Shown here: one piece after another, positions 1 to 45,578 of the stretch
Numbering within the stretch: position 1 is the first letter of the stretch
Layout: each line of letters begins with the position of its first letter
IMG/VR virus record: IMGVR_UViG_3300021387_001106
Span: 1-64,000 of that record
From: a virus
Lineage: Duplodnaviria > Caudoviricetes
DNA: 64,000 nucleotides
Strand: one strand, 5' to 3'
Notes under the pieces: model-generated
What the model was told of the DNA's origin: nothing
Databases searched by the model: none
What the model saw: only the letters and a program-made list of their open reading frames with translations
Position numbers and translations under genes: made by a program

Positions 1-176
1 ATACGGCGCAACTCACGCTGTAGAGGAATGAAGGAAAACCTAAGCCTTCTAAGTTCCCGATGCTAAACTGTGTAATCGGCGCTGGATTAGATGAGAGTCT
101 GTCCTGAATGAGAAAGCTCTGCGAGAGTGAGCTTCTTGGGGTGACGCCCGGTGGAGACCGAATAGTCTATATGATT
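1..176 (+). ncRNA. 3' part of a large structured ncRNA, ROOL/GOLLD-like (5' end outside window)
   Basis: No ORF; stacked short hairpins (AGAAAGCTC/GAGCTTCT, CGGT-GGAG-ACCG, GCGA/GTGA loops); CCTAAGCCTT...TAAA..TGTAATC segment resembles my recollection of ROOL/GOLLD motifs; directly upstream of tRNA-like array. Confidence 0.45.
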
Positions 177-262
177 GCCCCTATAGTTCAATGGAAGTCG
201 ATTTAAGCATGTAGAACGCCAATGGTCTTTAGGTAATCTGGGTTCGATTCCCAGTGGGGGCG
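177..262 (+). tRNA. tRNA-like element with enlarged D-loop and disrupted anticodon arm
   Basis: Acceptor GCCCCTA/TGGGGGC, D-stem GTTC/GAAC, T-arm CTGGG-TTCGATT-CCCAG; anticodon arm does not pair properly. Confidence 0.65.
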
Positions 263-266
263 GTTA

Positions 267-350
267 TGTGTTGAAGCGATAGGTTAGAGGGAGACACCGG
301 GTCGCCAACAACGACTAAGCGTGGGTTCGAGCCCCACAGACTTCAACACA
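267..350 (+). ncRNA. tRNA-like RNA with 10-bp terminal stem
   Basis: TGTGTTGAAG/CTTCAACACA closing stem, arm GGTCG-CCAACAA-CGACT, T-arm GTGGG-TTCGAGC-CCCAC; no proper D-arm. Confidence 0.55.
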
Positions 351-389
351 TTTCAGCCTTACGTCCAAAGACTATAATAAAGTGCTGGT

Positions 390-458
390 TGCACAGTGAG
401 CAAGTGGAAGCGACCTTACGTAATAAGGTAAATGCAGGTTCGAGTCCTGTCTGTGTAA
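390..458 (+). tRNA. Atypical tRNA-like element (loop ACGTAAT, nominal GTA/Tyr, no U33, short D-arm)
   Basis: Acceptor TGCACAG/CTGTGTA, anticodon stem ACCTT/AAGGT, T-arm GCAGG-TTCGAGT-CCTGT. Confidence 0.55.
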
Positions 459-550
459 GCCGTGTTTATACATTTGGCGTTACTAAAATGTATGGGCGGG
501 TAAGTACGTAGCCAGAACAGCCGTCAGCAGAGAAACAGGTTCAGGTGAGT

Positions 551-613
551 GGGGCATGTAGCTCAAAGGGAGAGTGGTGCGCAAGATGTGGGTTCGAATC
601 CTACCATGTCCCA
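551..613 (+). tRNA. tRNA-like element lacking the anticodon arm
   Basis: Acceptor GGGCATG/CATGTCC, D-arm GCTC-AAAGGGA-GAGT, T-arm GTGGG-TTCGAAT-CCTAC; only ~12 nt between D and T arms. Confidence 0.65.
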
Positions 614-718
614 GCGGGGTTAAGAGCAAATGTGGGTAACCCAGTGAGGTGTCTGTTTACAGATACTTCAGGCCAATTATTCCCGATGTGCAGTTACCGG
701 TTTACTTTAAACCGACCA

Positions 719-808
719 GGGAGCGTAGCTCAAAAGGAAGAGCGGCTGAGACCCAACAGAGTAAGGAGCCAATCAGTATGGATACAGGTTCGAGTCCTGA
801 CGCTTCCA
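719..808 (+). tRNA. tRNA-like element with 23-nt expanded anticodon loop
   Basis: Acceptor GGGAGCG/CGCTTCC, D-arm GCTC/GAGC, anticodon stem GCTGA/TCAGT enclosing 750-772, T-loop TTCGAGT. Confidence 0.65.
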
Positions 809-838
809 ATACAGGATATGCAATAGAAAAGGAGTTAT

Positions 839-1075
839 ATGGAGAGAGAGTGGGCAATTTATGCGTCCTTTAACATCGGTGGGAAACAAATGTACGTCAT
901 GGCATTTGGACCTGCACCCCGGATATACGAAGCGCTGGGAAGCGCCAAAAGTTCCATAGCACTCGCCTACAGGGACGCAGATATGGAAAGCATAGACTTC
1001 ACATGCGCCATGGAAGTCCCATTTGAGGGAAACGGAAAGTGGTATGTCAGGGAAACGGTGGCAGAAGAATTTTGA
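839..1075 (+). CDS. Hypothetical protein
   Basis: AAGGAG RBS, 78-aa ORF between tRNA-like elements. Confidence 0.65.
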   Translation: MEREWAIYASFNIGGKQMYVMAFGPAPRIYEALGSAKSSIALAYRDADMESIDFTCAMEVPFEGNGKWYVRETVAEEF

Positions 1076-1084
1076 GATAAACAA

Positions 1085-1201
1085 GGGAACGTGGTGTAAG
1101 GGTAGCATAGAAAAAGGGAGGTCATGTCTGTGGCCTTGTCAGCAATAAATCTTAAATCGTCTGCTAAACGGTAGGTGCGGGTTCGAATCCCGCCGTTCCC
1201 A
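1085..1201 (+). tRNA. tRNA with GCT (Ser) anticodon, short variable loop and 46-nt insertion (1110-1155)
   Basis: Acceptor GGGAACG/CGTTCCC, D-stem GTGT/GCAT, anticodon arm ATCGT-CTGCTAA-ACGGT, T-arm GCGGG-TTCGAAT-CCCGC. Confidence 0.75.
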
Positions 1202-1220
1202 TTATCAAAAAAAGGAGATC

Positions 1221-2723
1221 GTGATGAACTTTGCGGAAGCAATGCGGCAGGAACATAAGTGGACTAAGACCGAGAATGGAGCAGTCGCCCTGAATACATC
1301 GGGGGATGCACTTCTCGATTTTTTTGGTACTGTTGGTGCTCTTCGTGAGGCGCCTGATACGAGGGTCACTACCCTGTTCGAGGAAGCCTATAAGGAAGAC
1401 CCGGCCATCGCCACGAAGATACTGTTCTACGCAAGGGACATCCGTGGCGACGGAGAGACGACCGGGCTCGGTGAGCGCAAGACGTTCAGGACTATCCTGA
1501 GGTACTGTGCATATCATCATCCTGAAGCCGTCCGTCCAAACCTTGACCTGGTCGGCGCGTACGGGCGCTACGACGACCTCTATGAACTGGTTGGGACTCC
1601 GCTTGAAGATGACGCCTTCAAGGCAATGAGGAAGCAGTTCGACGAGGATCTGGACAACATGTCAAAGGGGAACGTCATTTCCCTTCTCGCCAAGTGGATA
1701 AAGACTGCGGATGCTTCTTCCGCACAGACGCGGAAACTGGGAATCCTGACCGCAAATAAGTTCGGGATACCTGTATATAACTTCAAACGCATCGTGCGTG
1801 CTATGAGGAAGCACATAGGCGTAGTCGAGGGGCTGATGTCCACACAGCAGTGGGACAAGATAAAGTATCCTGATGTCCCTTCGAGAGCGATGCTGATATA
1901 CAGGAACGCTTTTATGAAGCACGATGGGATACGGTTCAACACCTTTGCCCAGAAAGCGGCAAGCGGTGAAGAGAAGATAAACTCCGCAACACTGTTCCCG
2001 TATGACATCATCGAGAAATACAGGGGCGGATGGTGTTATGGATATACGGGCGGCAACCTTGACAAGGTGCAGGAGCAGATTCTTCAGGCACAGTGGGATC
2101 AGCTCCCGAACTATGTTGAAGAGGGAACGAACGCCATCGTCATTGCAGACACATCTGGGAGCATGACCGGCAGACCCATGGATACTGCGGTGGGGCTCGC
2201 CATCTACTTTGCCCAGAGGAACACAGGAGCGTACCACGACCTGTGGATGAACTTCTCATCTGACCCGTCTTTCCAGAAGATAAAGGGGAAGACACTGAAG
2301 CAGGTCTTGAGAAACATCAATTATAACAACTGGAACGGAAGCACAAACTGCGAAGCGGCGTTCGAGCTCATCCTCGGGACTGCTGTCAAATACCGGATTC
2401 CACACGAAGAGATGCCGAAAGCACTGATTATCATTTCCGACATGGAGTTCGATTACTGTGGCGACGGGCAGTGGACGTTCTATGACCGTATGAGGGCTGA
2501 GTACAGCCAGAAGGGATATGACATCCCTACCGTCATCTTCTGGAACGTCGACAGCCGCCACGATGTTTTCCACGCGGACAAGACGCGCAAGGGCGTCATA
2601 CTCGTCAGCGGGCAGTCGGCATCTGTATTCCAACAGTTAATGGGGAGCGTCGGCATGACCCCGGTGGAGCACATGATGAAGGTGGTCAATTCAAAGAGAT
2701 ACGAACCGATAACAGTCGGTTAA
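1221..2723 (+). CDS. DUF2828 family protein (helical N-domain + C-terminal vWA; Ro60/TROVE-like architecture)
   Basis: TENGA, LLDFF, RDIRG..GLGER, GRYDDL, SLLAKW, NSATLFPYDI motifs; vWA MIDAS DTSGSM...GSTN...IISDMEFD; FWN. Confidence 0.9.
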   Translation: MMNFAEAMRQEHKWTKTENGAVALNTSGDALLDFFGTVGALREAPDTRVTTLFEEAYKEDPAIATKILFYARDIRGDGETTGLGERKTFRTILRYCAYHHPEAVRPNLDLVGAYGRYDDLYELVGTPLEDDAFKAMRKQFDEDLDNMSKGNVISLLAKWIKTADASSAQTRKLGILTANKFGIPVYNFKRIVRAMRKHIGVVEGLMSTQQWDKIKYPDVPSRAMLIYRNAFMKHDGIRFNTFAQKAASGEEKINSATLFPYDIIEKYRGGWCYGYTGGNLDKVQEQILQAQWDQLPNYVEEGTNAIVIADTSGSMTGRPMDTAVGLAIYFAQRNTGAYHDLWMNFSSDPSFQKIKGKTLKQVLRNINYNNWNGSTNCEAAFELILGTAVKYRIPHEEMPKALIIISDMEFDYCGDGQWTFYDRMRAEYSQKGYDIPTVIFWNVDSRHDVFHADKTRKGVILVSGQSASVFQQLMGSVGMTPVEHMMKVVNSKRYEPITVG

Positions 2724-2725
2724 TA

Positions 2726-2819
2726 TGGGGCACTTACAGCGAATAATAAAACCAGAAGGTTGGGAACCGGGTGGAATACCCCGGGAACTGTGGATATAAC
2801 CCACCCACAAAGTGTCCTG
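2726..2819 (+). ncRNA. CAGC(G/A)A-stem RNA element, copy 1
   Basis: TGGGGCACTT-ACAGCGAA ... AAGTGTCCTG closing stem with three internal hairpins; no ORF. Confidence 0.6.
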
Positions 2820-2829
2820 ATTCAATAAG

Positions 2830-2948
2830 GCGACCGTAGCTCAGTTGGGAGAGCGCTATATGCAACGGGTCATGCATGTGGCCCCGACAGCAACTATCGC
2901 AATCCACTTTTAATGGAGAGGTCGCGGGTTCGAGTCCCGCCGGTCGCT
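2830..2948 (+). tRNA. tRNA-Lys(TTT) with 46-nt insertion (2858-2903)
   Basis: Acceptor GCGACCG/CGGTCGC, D-arm GCTC-AGTTGGGA-GAGC; removing the insert gives anticodon arm CTCCA-CTTTTAA-TGGAG; AGGTC variable loop; T-arm GCGGG-TTCGAGT-CCCGC. Confidence 0.8.
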
Positions 2949-2951
2949 ATA

Positions 2952-3003
2952 TGGGGTGCTTGCAGCAATCATCATTCTAATGGGTTTAGAAAAAGGCATC
3001 CTG
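2952..3003 (+). ncRNA. CAGCAA-stem RNA element, copy 2
   Basis: TGGGGTGCTT-GCAGCAA ... AGGCATCCTG closing stem, internal hairpin TTCTAA/TTAGAA. Confidence 0.6.
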
Positions 3004-3020
3004 AAGAAAAGGAGAACACA

Positions 3021-3290
3021 GTGACAAACGCAGAAAAATTCCACGCCGTGTTTGGCATGTACGCCACGGAAATCTGGTCACTTCCAGAAGCTGATTTTCT
3101 GAAGTGGCTCAATGAGGCAGCCGGGACGGACAGTATTCCGAACCTTCTGGAGGATGGAACGCTGGTCGTTCCTGTCAAAGAAGGGGCAAAGGTCGGACGT
3201 GTCCTTATCGAGGAAGAAGGTACGTGTTTTGGCAGTATGTTCTACCCGGACGGGCAGGGGACTGATTGTATCGGGGAGGGTGTTGATTGA
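3021..3290 (+). CDS. Hypothetical phage protein
   Basis: AGGAG RBS before GTG 3021; upstream part of the track ORF overlaps the tRNA. Confidence 0.65.
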   Translation: MTNAEKFHAVFGMYATEIWSLPEADFLKWLNEAAGTDSIPNLLEDGTLVVPVKEGAKVGRVLIEEEGTCFGSMFYPDGQGTDCIGEGVD

Positions 3291-3472
3291 AAACGAGTAC
3301 ATACCATAAAGGCATCCCCGGGCTGGAGTGGCGGATATGGGACAAGAAGAAAAAGAGCTTCGCTTTCGGCATACGTGAGGAAACTCCCATGTTGGCCGAG
3401 GCGAGGCTTTTTCAAAAGCTCGGAGATGATGCAAGGAAATGGCGATATGAAATCAAGGGGGTAAAGAAGTGA
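3287..3472 (+). CDS. Hypothetical phage protein
   Basis: GGAGG RBS, coupled overlap. Confidence 0.65.
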   Translation: MKTSTYHKGIPGLEWRIWDKKKKSFAFGIREETPMLAEARLFQKLGDDARKWRYEIKGVKK

Positions 3473-3750
3473 GAAGGTTGCATAAGGGGCTGCTTCTATG
3501 CGCACTTGTTACAGCGACGCTGACCGTAACAGGCTGCCAGAAGGCGGCAAGGGACTATGGTACTACAATGACCATTAACCTCAAACCCGGCGAGAAGTTG
3601 GAGGAGATCACGTGGAAGGACGACAGCGATCTATGGTACCTTACAAGGCCGATGCGCGATGAGGAGAAGGCCGAAACTCACAGGTTCAGGCAGTCAAAAG
3701 ACTTCAGCATCATAGAAGGCGAGGTCGTCATCATCGAGAGGGAGAAGTAA
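3469..3750 (+). CDS. Phage lipoprotein
   Basis: Signal peptide with lipobox VTGC. Confidence 0.7.
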   Translation: MRRLHKGLLLCALVTATLTVTGCQKAARDYGTTMTINLKPGEKLEEITWKDDSDLWYLTRPMRDEEKAETHRFRQSKDFSIIEGEVVIIEREK

Positions 3751-4056
3751 ATGGCTGGATTATCGCTCAACATCAGGGGTGCAAAGGTAGTCAATAACAC
3801 TGTCAACTTATGCAGCTCATGCAGATATATGATACCCGAATGCAAGGCAACTTTCGAAGACATCCTGTTTGGCGACGGAATAGGCAAAGACAATGTCTGT
3901 ACATGCAGGTTCTACGAGGCAAGGAATACCGCCATATCATGTGGAGACTGCATGTACTATGACCGGGAAACGAAGGAATGTCGTCAGCCTAATGGTGCTC
4001 TGGCGAATATTGAACCGGACGGCTTCTGTTCAATGGGAAAGGAGAAACGGAAATGA
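3751..4056 (+). CDS. Cys-rich hypothetical protein
   Basis: Two CxxC..C repeats, operon context. Confidence 0.65.
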   Translation: MAGLSLNIRGAKVVNNTVNLCSSCRYMIPECKATFEDILFGDGIGKDNVCTCRFYEARNTAISCGDCMYYDRETKECRQPNGALANIEPDGFCSMGKEKRK

Positions 4057-4445
4057 CCTTAGGCGGATGGGCTATATTTATCATCCTTACAATATGTATC
4101 ATCGCGGTTTTTGTGGCGCTTGGCTGTTCGACCGAAAATAACGGCCTGCGTCTTCTATACGTCTTCCTGCCGATAATCCTTGTTATAGGGCTGTACGCGG
4201 TTCTCAACTGGTATTACAGCAAGACAGCGTCTGGCCTCAGGGCAATGAAATCACAGAAGTCAAACTTCACAAACGGCATTGAGCGGGAAGTGACTGTATA
4301 CGATGTCAACGGCAAAGTCATCAAACGGTATGACGGCAGGTTCGATGTTGACTACGACGATGACCGTATCATCTTCGATGATGAGAACGGGAAACGGCAT
4401 GTCATCTACTACCCGACGGGAACAGTCATTATAGATGAGAAGTGA
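4053..4445 (+). CDS. Membrane protein (2 TM) with C-terminal beta domain
   Basis: Two hydrophobic segments, AGGAG RBS. Confidence 0.75.
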   Translation: MTLGGWAIFIILTICIIAVFVALGCSTENNGLRLLYVFLPIILVIGLYAVLNWYYSKTASGLRAMKSQKSNFTNGIEREVTVYDVNGKVIKRYDGRFDVDYDDDRIIFDDENGKRHVIYYPTGTVIIDEK

Positions 4446-4451
4446 GGACAA

Positions 4452-4652
4452 ATGAGTACACATTACGAACCACTTACCCCGGAACTTCGAAGAAAAGCGC
4501 TGGATTCTATAGAACATAAGATGAAGGAACTCAACACATGCCAGTCTACCTGCTTTACCAGTATGTATATGGCCGGGTATAAGGCGGCACAGAGCATTAT
4601 CAAGGGGCTGCCTGATGGCTACCCGATGCCAATAGAAAGGAGAGGACATTGA
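4452..4652 (+). CDS. Hypothetical protein
   Basis: GAGG RBS, operon context. Confidence 0.65.
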   Translation: MSTHYEPLTPELRRKALDSIEHKMKELNTCQSTCFTSMYMAGYKAAQSIIKGLPDGYPMPIERRGH

Positions 4653-5170
4653 ACGTAACACTTCTGGAATCACCAACCGAGGAGGATTGGAAGGAGTGCA
4701 AGAGAAGGGCACTCATAACGGAGTACGGAAAAGGAATTGGCCCGATAAAGCTGCCGGGCACAGAGTGGAGGAAGAGGATACTGGAAGCGAGGCACAGCCC
4801 TATCAGATACCTGAAGTACAGCTTCCTGTTTCAGAACATCCCTTCCAACACATCAGTCCACTTGTGCCGGCACGTGCACGCACAGCCCTATGTGTCAAGT
4901 CTCCGCAATGACCGTCAGGACAAGATGGACGGCGACAAGGCTCCGAGGAATACCCCGGTCAATATGATACTGGACGTCAACGCAGAGGAACTGATGGTGA
5001 TCGCTAACAAGAGGCTTTGCAACAAGGCGTCCGCAAAGACACGGGAAGCTGTCCGCATGATGTGCGAGTGCGCGGCTGATGCCACACCAGAAATAGAACA
5101 CCTGCTCGTACCTATGTGTGAATATTGCGGCGGTGTGTGCCATGAGATGAAGCCTTGTGGGAGGAGGTGA
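4649..5170 (+). CDS. thyX: FAD-dependent thymidylate synthase-like protein (short ThyX/Thy1)
   Basis: HSPIR, HLCRH, SxRxDR, RLCNKA, C-terminal PMCEYCGGVCHEMKPCG. Confidence 0.7.
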   Translation: MNVTLLESPTEEDWKECKRRALITEYGKGIGPIKLPGTEWRKRILEARHSPIRYLKYSFLFQNIPSNTSVHLCRHVHAQPYVSSLRNDRQDKMDGDKAPRNTPVNMILDVNAEELMVIANKRLCNKASAKTREAVRMMCECAADATPEIEHLLVPMCEYCGGVCHEMKPCGRR

Positions 5171-45448: not shown

Positions 45449-45519
45449 CCGCCATTAGTATATTGGATAGAACGTTCCTATCTAAGGGAAAGGGCGAGGT
45501 TCGAATCCTCGGTGGCGGT
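45449..45519 (+). tRNA. Degenerate tRNA, most similar to tRNA-Arg(TCT)
   Basis: Acceptor CCGCCAT/GTGGCGG, TGGATAGAAC D region, T-arm CGAGG-TTCGAAT-CCTCG; loop TATCTAA lacks U33. Confidence 0.55.
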
Positions 45520-45578
45520 CTCAAACGAGGAGGCGGCAAGCCTCCTTTTTCATTTTCCGAAAACAGAAGGAGTACGGA

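What the first reader, a model, noticed from the sequence alone, without database searches (positions are those of the whole stretch)
1110..2903. Two unrelated tRNAs carry the same 46-nt insertion at the D-arm/anticodon-stem junction
The inserts at 1110-1155 (GCT tRNA) and 2858-2903 (Lys-TTT) are both 46 nt and align without gaps as 10 nt + GGTCATGnnTGTGGCCyyGwCAGCAA (21/26 identical; hairpin RGGTCAT/GTGGCCY with an A-T versus G-C swap at the base) + 10 nt. Deleting the insert restores a complete cloverleaf (perfect CTCCA/TGGAG stem for Lys). The position (26-28) is not the anticodon-loop site of bacterial group I tRNA introns, and 46 nt is too short to self-splice. It is either a new protein-dependent mini-intron or a retained extra arm acting as a protein handle.
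Basis: seen in the sequence. Interest (0 to 1): 0.88.

Follow-up and report, generated by a model that had tools for sequence, protein, structure and literature searches.

The report
tRNA-shaped RNAs carrying Ro60-like handle
Two tRNA-shaped genes in this gut/rumen phage carry the same extra folded arm, which recurs in hundreds of related phages next to a gene for a Ro60-shaped RNA-binding protein. It is most likely that protein's docking handle, not a new kind of tRNA intron.

Summary
Both 46-nt inserts (1110-1155, 2858-2903) exist, share the stated motif (2 hits, 0 expected), and deleting them gives clean cloverleafs.

The insert is a conserved RNA module: a 7-bp hairpin with an invariant A-U and U•G apical end, 5 of 7 pairs covarying, followed 2-4 nt later by single-stranded ACAGCAA. 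Across 161 related loci it is almost wholly strand-specific (230 vs 4) and lies beside a DUF2828/vWA gene (window 1224-2723). That protein's predicted fold matches Ro60 over its full length.

The module also occurs circularly permuted as a stand-alone element (367 vs 8). Examples are window 2726-2819 and 2952-3003, and in 76 loci it sits just before the DUF2828 ribosome-binding site. In 16 mini RNAs it replaces the anticodon arm.

Best reading (about 0.6): these are tRNA-shaped Y-RNA analogues whose extra arm is the handle for the Ro60-like protein. Excision as an intron is not excluded (about 0.15), because no RNA data exist.

In the TTT gene's family, covariation places the insert between nt 28 and 29, inside the anticodon stem.

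This scan has noted the same module-plus-DUF2828 pairing in at least 22 other genomes. I found it in neither Rfam nor the papers I searched.

The parts
1085..1201 (+). tRNA-shaped RNA gene, 'anticodon' GCT, short (4-nt) variable loop; ends about 20 nt before the DUF2828 start codon
   Evidence: ARAGORN cloverleaf after deleting 1110-1155; Rfam tRNA partial match of 30.9 bits; cloverleaf parse
1110..1155 (+). 46-nt insert at the D-stem/anticodon-stem junction (best fit 26/27)
1119..1136 (+). Module hairpin: 7 bp (1119-1125 with 1130-1136), loop 1126-1129, with conserved A-U and U•G pairs next to the loop
   Evidence: Model R1 hit of 35.1 bits; covariation in alignment A3
1139..1145 (+). Single-stranded UCAGCAA motif 3' of the hairpin
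   Evidence: C24, G26, C27 and A29 are invariant in A3
1224..2723 (+). Gene for a 499-aa DUF2828 + DUF7788/vWA protein with a predicted Ro60-like fold
   Evidence: Pfam PF11443 and PF25043; PHROG 850 'RNA-binding protein'; AlphaFold2 pLDDT 94.2; the top 13 Foldseek PDB hits are all Ro60/TROVE
2726..2819 (+). Stand-alone, circularly permuted module: 5' strand UGGGGCACU, then ACAGCGA, a variable loop, and the 3' strand AGUGUCCUG
   Evidence: same architecture as 367 + strand versus 8 - strand elements in relatives
2829..2948 (+). tRNA-shaped RNA gene, 'anticodon' TTT; orthologues carry GGT, TGT or GAT
   Evidence: ARAGORN after deletion; family alignment A5 shows covariation in the acceptor, T and anticodon stems
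2858..2903 (+). 46-nt insert between nt 28 and 29, inside the 5' strand of the anticodon stem
   Evidence: Split-stem pair 28-42 covaries (GC in 6, UA in 5 of 11); the contiguous alternative fails in 7 of 11
2867..2884 (+). Module hairpin: 2867-2873 paired with 2878-2884, loop 2874-2877
   Evidence: R1 hit of 37.9 bits
2887..2893 (+). Single-stranded ACAGCAA motif
2952..3003 (+). Second stand-alone permuted module (UGGGGUGCU, GCAGCAA, loop, GGCAUCCUG), lying directly before the Shine-Dalgarno sequence and GTG start (3021) of the next ORF

Best explanation
The 46-nt insert is a retained, structured RNA arm. It consists of a 7-bp hairpin with an invariant A-U and U•G end, followed by single-stranded ACAGCAA. 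It most likely serves as the docking site for the Ro60-like DUF2828/vWA protein encoded between the two genes.

On this reading the two genes are not ordinary decoding tRNAs with an intron. They are tRNA-shaped partner RNAs, analogues of the Y RNAs (YrlA type) that bind canonical Ro60. The handle is grafted, in circularly permuted form, into the 5' strand of the upper anticodon stem.

The same handle in its stand-alone form flanks the genes. In most related phages it sits just upstream of the DUF2828 ribosome-binding site, where binding would also allow autoregulation.

Shown: the module, its covariation, its two topologies, its linkage and strand bias, and the Ro60 fold of the protein. Inferred: that the protein binds the module, that the arm stays in the mature RNA, and what the particle does. 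My guess is tRNA-centred RNA surveillance or counter-defence, by analogy with Ro60/Y RNA.
For: 1. The module is real and folds at the RNA level. There are 2 hits against 0 expected in the window. In 18 homologous inserts 98.4% of cells pair, 5 of 7 pairs change on both sides, and 0 of 500 shuffles match. The invariant U•G pair would be a C·A mismatch on the opposite strand.

2. Linkage to the protein gene. Model R1 finds 87 and 210 hits in the two sets of loci chosen by DUF2828 homology. All are on the gene's strand, and nearly all lie within about 1 kb upstream of it or just downstream. A regex census gives 230 on the + strand versus 4 on the - strand. In the 6.1-Mb Diplocloster hominis genome, the only strong hits lie beside its DUF2828 gene.

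3. The same helix plus ACAGCAA occurs permuted and outside tRNAs, 367 versus 8 by strand. In 76 loci such an element ends less than 50 nt before the DUF2828 start, just ahead of the Shine-Dalgarno sequence. Its 8-bp closing helix covaries. This form cannot be an intron.

4. Of 157 unique contexts, 16 are 85-96-nt mini RNAs in which the module hairpin takes the place of the anticodon arm, and 49 have a tRNA-like frame without a canonical anticodon arm. These cannot decode.

5. The protein model (pLDDT 94.2) matches Ro60 full-length. The matches include Xenopus, human, Deinococcus and Thermus phage phiLo Ro60, with E 1.6e-10 to 1e-5 and TM about 0.5-0.6.

6. There is precedent. Ro60 partner RNAs are encoded beside Ro60 on the same strand in bacteria and phages, and they mimic tRNA (PMC4201824, PMC12135203).

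7. The GCT gene has a class-I body with a 4-nt variable loop. Bacterial SerRS needs the long variable arm (established knowledge), so this is not a normal tRNA-Ser.

8. No insert-less close orthologue exists among 364 normal tRNAs from the same loci.

9. No RtcB or splicing endonuclease was found in this phage, and no RtcB in five relatives.
Against: - No binding or expression data exist.
- About half of the unique insert-bearing genes (74 of 157), including both window genes, keep a perfect 5-bp anticodon stem and a 7-nt loop with U33 and a purine at 37. The stem covaries across the insert. That is what one would expect of a tRNA meant to decode after the insert is removed.
- An arm emerging at nt 26-29 would probably clash with the ribosome (inference). 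So if these RNAs do decode, the arm must come out.
- Linkage was measured in loci chosen for having DUF2828.
- In Sarcina sp. DSM 11001, module-bearing tRNAs sit in arrays on contigs without a DUF2828 gene, although the genome has two copies elsewhere.
- In a sample of 151 Lachnospiraceae genomes, only 3 had strong module hits and 19 had DUF2828. Two genomes had both, so the test is underpowered.
Confidence: 0.6

Rival explanations
1. The insert is a true intervening sequence. It is cut out of the precursor by proteins, possibly with the DUF2828 particle marking the site and a host ligase such as RtcB joining the ends. The product is a functional ~72-nt tRNA.
For: Deleting the insert restores perfect cloverleafs. 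Anticodon-stem pairs formed by nucleotides on either side of the insert covary: pair 28-42 is GC in 6 and UA in 5 of 11. Canonical 7-nt loops with U33 are kept in 74 of 157 unique contexts. Junctions are often ambiguous by 1-2 repeated nucleotides. All three host genomes examined encode RtcB.
Against: There is no bulge-helix-bulge motif at the junctions (and reading). No splicing endonuclease was found in the phage or in three hosts. RtcB is absent from this phage and five related phages. The same module occurs where excision makes no sense: in the DUF2828 5' UTR, in spacers, and replacing the anticodon arm. No insert-less alleles were found. The GCT anticodon on a class-I body is not a chargeable tRNA-Ser.
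Confidence: 0.15
2. The module is a processing or regulatory signal of the tRNA-array transcript, such as an endoribonuclease site or a promoter-like element, and is read by something other than DUF2828. Its neighbourhood with that gene is incidental.
For: Stand-alone copies sit 3-5 nt after tRNA 3' ends and 10-15 nt before the next tRNA. The 3' half resembles T7-family promoter cores, from memory only. In Sarcina, module-bearing arrays lack a DUF2828 gene on the same contig.
Against: No T7-like RNA polymerase was found, though that search's control rang nowhere, so this is weak. The 7-8-bp helix is too short for RNase III (established knowledge). The invariant U•G pairs and near-total strand bias point to RNA folding. 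The most constant location is the DUF2828 5' UTR, right at its ribosome-binding site.
Confidence: 0.12
3. The insert is a small mobile DNA element (MITE-like, or a recombination site) that has landed in tRNA genes and has no RNA function.
For: Two unrelated tRNA bodies carry the same insert. One- to two-nucleotide repeats at some junctions could pass for target-site duplications.
Against: The flanks of the hairpin are not conserved, while the hairpin covaries through G•U intermediates. Orientation is the same in 230 of 234 cases. The site is structural (nt 26-30 of many different tRNA bodies) rather than sequence-defined. No presence/absence polymorphism was seen. Exact-motif copies elsewhere in IMG/VR were only chance hits in coding sequence.
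Confidence: 0.03

Closest known systems
Ro60 (Rsr) with Y RNAs, especially tRNA-mimicking YrlA of bacteria and mycobacteriophages, and Yrl1/Yrl2 of Thermus phage phiLo (PMC4201824, PMC12135203)
   Same: A ring-plus-vWA protein of the Ro60 fold. Small RNAs of about 90-130 nt are encoded next to its gene on the same strand, often upstream and in several copies. The RNAs combine a protein-binding helix and a short conserved single-stranded motif with tRNA-like arms. The stand-alone elements here share the Y-RNA layout of a 5'-3' closing stem around a large loop that carries the motif.
   Different: The protein matches DUF2828/DUF7788, not the TROVE Pfam family, and is only 12-15% identical to Ro60 structures. 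No Rfam family other than tRNA matched usefully at E <= 1 in 1-5000, so no Y-RNA or YrlA model hit it. The conserved motif is ACAGCAA beside a CAUG/GUG helix end, not GNCGAA or GGUCCGA. Here the handle is inserted into a complete cloverleaf with free acceptor ends and an anticodon arm. In YrlA the RNA ends form the Ro60-binding stem and the 'acceptor' is closed.
Archaeal and eukaryal protein-spliced tRNA introns, including non-canonical positions in Thermoproteales (PMC4090602)
   Same: A short insert at a non-canonical position in the tRNA body. Similar inserts occur in different tRNAs. Removing the insert restores the cloverleaf.
   Different: The host is bacterial (Lachnospiraceae). There is no bulge-helix-bulge motif, and no splicing endonuclease in the phage or hosts. 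The same module also occurs outside tRNAs.
Bacterial and phage group I introns in tRNA genes (PMC3984707)
   Same: Intervening sequence in a bacterial or phage tRNA gene.
   Different: Those are self-splicing ribozymes of 200 nt or more in the anticodon loop. This insert is 43-58 nt, lies at nt 26-30, and gave no group I hit in Rfam.

Membership tests
Ro60/Y-RNA ribonucleoprotein | Protein has the Ro60 architecture (HEAT-repeat ring plus vWA/MIDAS domain) | tested here: met
   AlphaFold2 pLDDT 94.2, pTM 0.93. The top 13 Foldseek PDB hits are Ro60/TROVE, aligned over 531-582 columns. A DxSxS motif (ADTSGSM) is invariant in alignment A4.
Ro60/Y-RNA ribonucleoprotein | Protein belongs to the TROVE sequence family (Pfam PF05731) | tested here: not met
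   hmmscan at E <= 0.01 gives only DUF2828, DUF7788 and a weak VWA_2 hit. A profile search of PDB sequences finds no Ro60.
Ro60/Y-RNA ribonucleoprotein | Partner RNAs are encoded within a few kb of the protein gene on the same strand | tested here: met
   297 R1 hits, all on the gene's strand, almost all within about 1 kb upstream or just downstream
Ro60/Y-RNA ribonucleoprotein | RNA matches the known Y RNA / YrlA models or carries the GNCGAA(N)G / GGUCCGA motif | tested here: not met
   No Y-RNA or YrlA model among the Rfam matches at E <= 1 in 1-5000, or at gathering score in the window and five loci. By reading, the conserved motif is ACAGCAA.
Ro60/Y-RNA ribonucleoprotein | Protein physically binds the RNA | not testable with these tools
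   Needs EMSA, RIP or cryo-EM
Protein-spliced (BHB) tRNA intron | Bulge-helix-bulge motif at the exon-intron junctions | tested here: not met
   Folds of both genes and of the inserts and manual reading show no 3-4-3 BHB
Protein-spliced (BHB) tRNA intron | Splicing endonuclease and ligase are available | tested here: inconclusive
   PF01974 is absent from the phage and three hosts. RtcB is absent from six phages but present in three hosts.
Protein-spliced (BHB) tRNA intron | Insert is absent from the mature RNA | not testable with these tools
   No RNA holder listed
Group I tRNA intron | Ribozyme core (P3-P9) of 200 nt or more, located in the anticodon loop | tested here: not met
   46 nt at nt 26-29; no Rfam group I hit
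Canonical decoding tRNA | Uninterrupted cloverleaf recognised by tRNA finders, with isotype-consistent body and anticodon | tested here: not met
   ARAGORN misses both genes as they stand. The GCT anticodon sits on a short-variable-loop body. The anticodon differs among close orthologues: TTT/GGT/TGT/GAT.

The most novel reading that the evidence does not exclude
The insert is a genuine protein-dependent tRNA intervening sequence in a bacterial virus. The Ro60-like DUF2828 particle recognises the hairpin plus ACAGCAA and directs its excision, and host RtcB rejoins the halves. Phage tRNAs would then become active only when the phage protein is made. This would be the first tRNA splicing in the bacterial world that is neither group I nor BHB-based.
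Probability: 0.12. Interest if true: 0.95.

Novelty: new variant of a known kind. Interest (0 to 1): 0.7.

Why it matters
Ro60 and its Y RNAs form a conserved but poorly understood RNA-surveillance particle, and a human autoantigen. Four things would follow if this reading is right.

- DUF2828, a family with more than 6,000 representative clusters and no known function, would become a second Ro60-like branch. It would gain a defined RNA partner and a testable 31-nt binding site.
- It would show that a Y-RNA-type handle can be grafted into a complete tRNA. This is the mirror image of YrlA.
- It points to a tRNA-centred function in abundant gut and rumen Lachnospiraceae phages. Decoys, repair or control of tRNAs during infection are possible roles.
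- These genes are missed or mis-called by tRNA finders, so phage tRNA annotation needs correcting.

Tried and rejected
- **Exact-motif scan of IMG/VR**: four hits, all chance matches inside coding sequence.
- **Promoter idea.** The 3' half of the module resembled SP6/K11 promoters from memory. No T7-like polymerase was found, but that control rang nowhere, so the idea is dropped, not disproved.
- **Basal helix closing the insert** (A-rich 5' linker with U-rich 3' linker): longest helix 4.70 versus 4.51 in permuted controls, so not supported.
- **Insert-less orthologues:** nearest normal tRNAs are only 62-80% identical, which is generic tRNA similarity.
- **Sequencing runs:** no RNA holder listed.
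- **Read laying on four DNA runs**: contigs only. The joint 2856>2918 with 15 other letters between is an unrelated ordinary tRNA matching the D and T arms, not an insert-less allele.
- **Genome-level co-occurrence in 151 Lachnospiraceae:** 3 genomes with module hits and 19 with DUF2828, 2 with both. Too few to test.
- **ARAGORN deletion scan:** too permissive to fix junctions, so I replaced it with my own cloverleaf parser.
- **CRISPR-like array:** rejected because the units between modules are tRNA-like genes.
- **Complex prediction** was not used, because it scores protein partners only.
Full report
**1. Observation**

The window is the first 64 kb of a 98.6-kb, about 96% complete IMG/VR virus record. 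It carries a large serine integrase, terminase and portal.

At 1085-1201 and 2829-2948 lie two tRNA-shaped genes that ARAGORN does not call as they stand. Both contain the motif GGTCATGNNTGTGGCCNNGNCAGCAA, which has 2 hits in the window against 0 in 100 shuffles. Removing 1110-1155 and 2858-2903 gives standard cloverleafs with anticodons GCT and TTT.

**2. The insert is a conserved RNA module**

An exact-motif scan of IMG/VR found only chance hits in coding sequence. Orthologues of the gene lying between the two tRNAs told a different story.

- I found 9 close viral loci, then 80 viral and 80 bacterial loci. In these, many tRNA-like genes carry a homologous insert.
- An alignment of 18 inserts shows a 7-bp hairpin. 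The two pairs next to the loop are invariant (A-U and U•G), and the other five change on both sides. Overall 98.4% of cells are paired, 0 of 500 shuffles reach the score, and slid controls pair at about 40%.
- Two to four nucleotides 3' of the hairpin comes a nearly invariant ACAGCAA.
- A covariance model of these 31 nt finds 87 and 210 hits in the two locus sets. All lie on the strand of the protein gene.
- A regex census gives 230 on the + strand versus 4 on the - strand in 1.63 Mb.

The invariant G•U pairs and the strand bias argue for a structure in RNA, not in duplex DNA.

**3. Hosts**

The bacterial loci are almost all Lachnospiraceae from rumen and gut. They include the isolates Diplocloster hominis CSJ-3 and Sarcina sp. 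DSM 11001. The hosts are bacteria, so archaeal-type splicing is not expected. PF01974 is absent from the phage and from three host genomes.

**4. Where the module sits**

I parsed 157 unique contexts.

| Context | Count |
|---|---|
| Full cloverleaf with a 5-bp anticodon stem and 7-nt loop | 74 |
| Acceptor, D and T arms present, but anticodon region non-canonical | 49 |
| Mini RNA of 85-96 nt in which the module hairpin occupies the anticodon-arm position | 16 |
| No tRNA-like frame | 18 |

In full cloverleafs the insert lies on the 5' strand between nt 26/27 and 29/30.

In the family of the window's TTT gene, nt 27-28 lie upstream of the insert. Pair 28-42 is G-C in six sequences and U-A in five, and all eleven are paired. 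The alternative using the two nucleotides just before the 3' part fails in 7 of 11. The GCT insert fits best at 26/27.

**5. A second, permuted topology**

The same helix and motif occur outside tRNAs in permuted order. The 5' strand (U)G(U/G)GRNNC comes first, then ACAGCAA, then a variable loop that often holds a T-arm-like hairpin, and finally the 3' strand ending YC(A/C)UG.

- I counted 367 such elements on the + strand versus 8 on the - strand.
- The window has two, at 2726-2819 and 2952-3003, on either side of the TTT gene.
- In 76 loci one ends less than 50 nt before the protein gene's start, immediately ahead of its Shine-Dalgarno sequence.
- Its 8-bp closing helix pairs in 28-30 of 30 unique examples. 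Pair 3 switches between U-A and G-C, pair 6 between C-G and U-A, and pair 7 shows five standard pair types.

A first-stage note on this genome (e1-5960177) had proposed the circular permutation. I tested it here and it holds.

**6. The neighbouring protein**

The gene at 1224-2723 matches DUF2828 and DUF7788/vWA, not TROVE, and PHROG 850 'RNA-binding protein'. The family is large, with 6,354 representative clusters at E <= 0.001.

With a 65-sequence alignment, AlphaFold2 gives pLDDT 94.2 and pTM 0.93. The top 13 Foldseek hits in the PDB are all Ro60/TROVE structures aligned over essentially the full length. They include Xenopus Ro60 with Y RNA or misfolded RNA, human Ro60, Deinococcus Rsr and Thermus phage phiLo Ro60. 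E-values run from 1.6e-10 to 1.3e-5, TM is about 0.44-0.60, and identity is 12-15%. After those come only isolated vWA domains.

**7. Interpretation**

Canonical Ro60 binds Y RNAs that are encoded beside its gene on the same strand. These have a closing stem around a large loop with a short conserved motif, and in bacteria and phages they mimic tRNA (PMC4201824, PMC12135203). The system here reproduces that logic with a different protein family, a different motif and a different topology.

The simplest reading is that the hairpin plus ACAGCAA is the handle for the Ro60-like protein. The two window genes would then be tRNA-shaped partner RNAs. Four observations support non-decoding:

- the mini RNAs have no anticodon arm;
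- the GCT anticodon sits on a short-variable-loop body that SerRS should not charge (established knowledge);
- the anticodon triplet differs among close orthologues (TTT/GGT/TGT/GAT) while U33 and A37-A38 are kept;
- no insert-less close orthologue exists among 364 normal tRNAs.

**8. What keeps the intron reading alive**

Half of the members, including both window genes, keep a perfect, covarying anticodon stem and a canonical loop. An arm at nt 26-29 would probably be incompatible with the ribosome (inference), so decoding would require its removal. Hosts encode RtcB, although six phages do not.

No RNA run holds the region, so I could not test excision. I give excision about 0.15, a processing or regulatory signal unrelated to DUF2828 about 0.12, and a DNA-level mobile element about 0.03.

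**9. Caveats**

- Linkage was measured in loci chosen by DUF2828 homology.
- In Sarcina sp. DSM 11001, module-bearing tRNAs occur in large tRNA arrays on contigs without DUF2828, though the genome has two copies elsewhere.
- A sample of 151 Lachnospiraceae genomes gave too few module hits for a co-occurrence test.
- A basal helix closing the insert is not supported statistically.

**10. Novelty**

No non-tRNA Rfam family matched convincingly at E <= 1 in 1-5000, and none except tRNA and one HEARO RNA matched at gathering score. Full-text searches for DUF2828, for tRNA introns in phages, and for TROVE/RNA-repair systems found no description of this pairing.

This scan's own notes record the same module with DUF2828 in at least 22 other genomes, with the same reading. 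Those are unchecked AI notes. My conclusion rests on the tests above.

I class this as a new variant of a known kind: a Ro60/Y-RNA-type particle with tRNA mimicry.

Noticed in passing
window 176-263, 273-345, 552-612, 719-808 (+): Four more aberrant tRNA-shaped genes lie upstream of the DUF2828 gene. One has a ~19-nt D-loop insert, one has C33 and the loop CCAACAA, one is a 61-nt form with no anticodon arm (Rfam tRNA 42.7 bits), and one has a 23-nt 'anticodon loop'. None carries the CAGCAA module. Only tRNA-Tyr (389-461) looks normal.
   Followed up: partly
L009 108-350: A HEARO RNA (IscB-associated omega RNA, Rfam RF02033, 139 bits) lies upstream of the tRNA array in the closest related phage contig.
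   Followed up: no
G002 (Sarcina sp. DSM 11001) contigs C21, C58, C69 = L178-L180: Arrays of 9-22 tRNA genes contain a module-bearing tRNA(CCA) whose hairpin uses the CCUG/GGG variant, plus stand-alone modules. No DUF2828 gene is on those contigs.
   Followed up: partly
window 2907-2913 and orthologues in A5: The anticodon triplet varies among otherwise close orthologues (TTT, GGT, TGT, GAT; and GCT versus CAA for the other gene), while loop positions 33, 37 and 38 stay fixed. The pattern looks like diversifying change at the anticodon.
   Followed up: partly
window 3021-3290 (+): A small ORF with no Pfam hit is preceded by a stand-alone module placed right before its Shine-Dalgarno sequence. 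In other phages the DUF2828 gene has the same arrangement. This may be a second gene under the same RNA-level control.
   Followed up: no
window 45449-45520 (+): ARAGORN reports a tRNA-??? with a two-base anticodon (ct), far from the array. Not examined.
   Followed up: no
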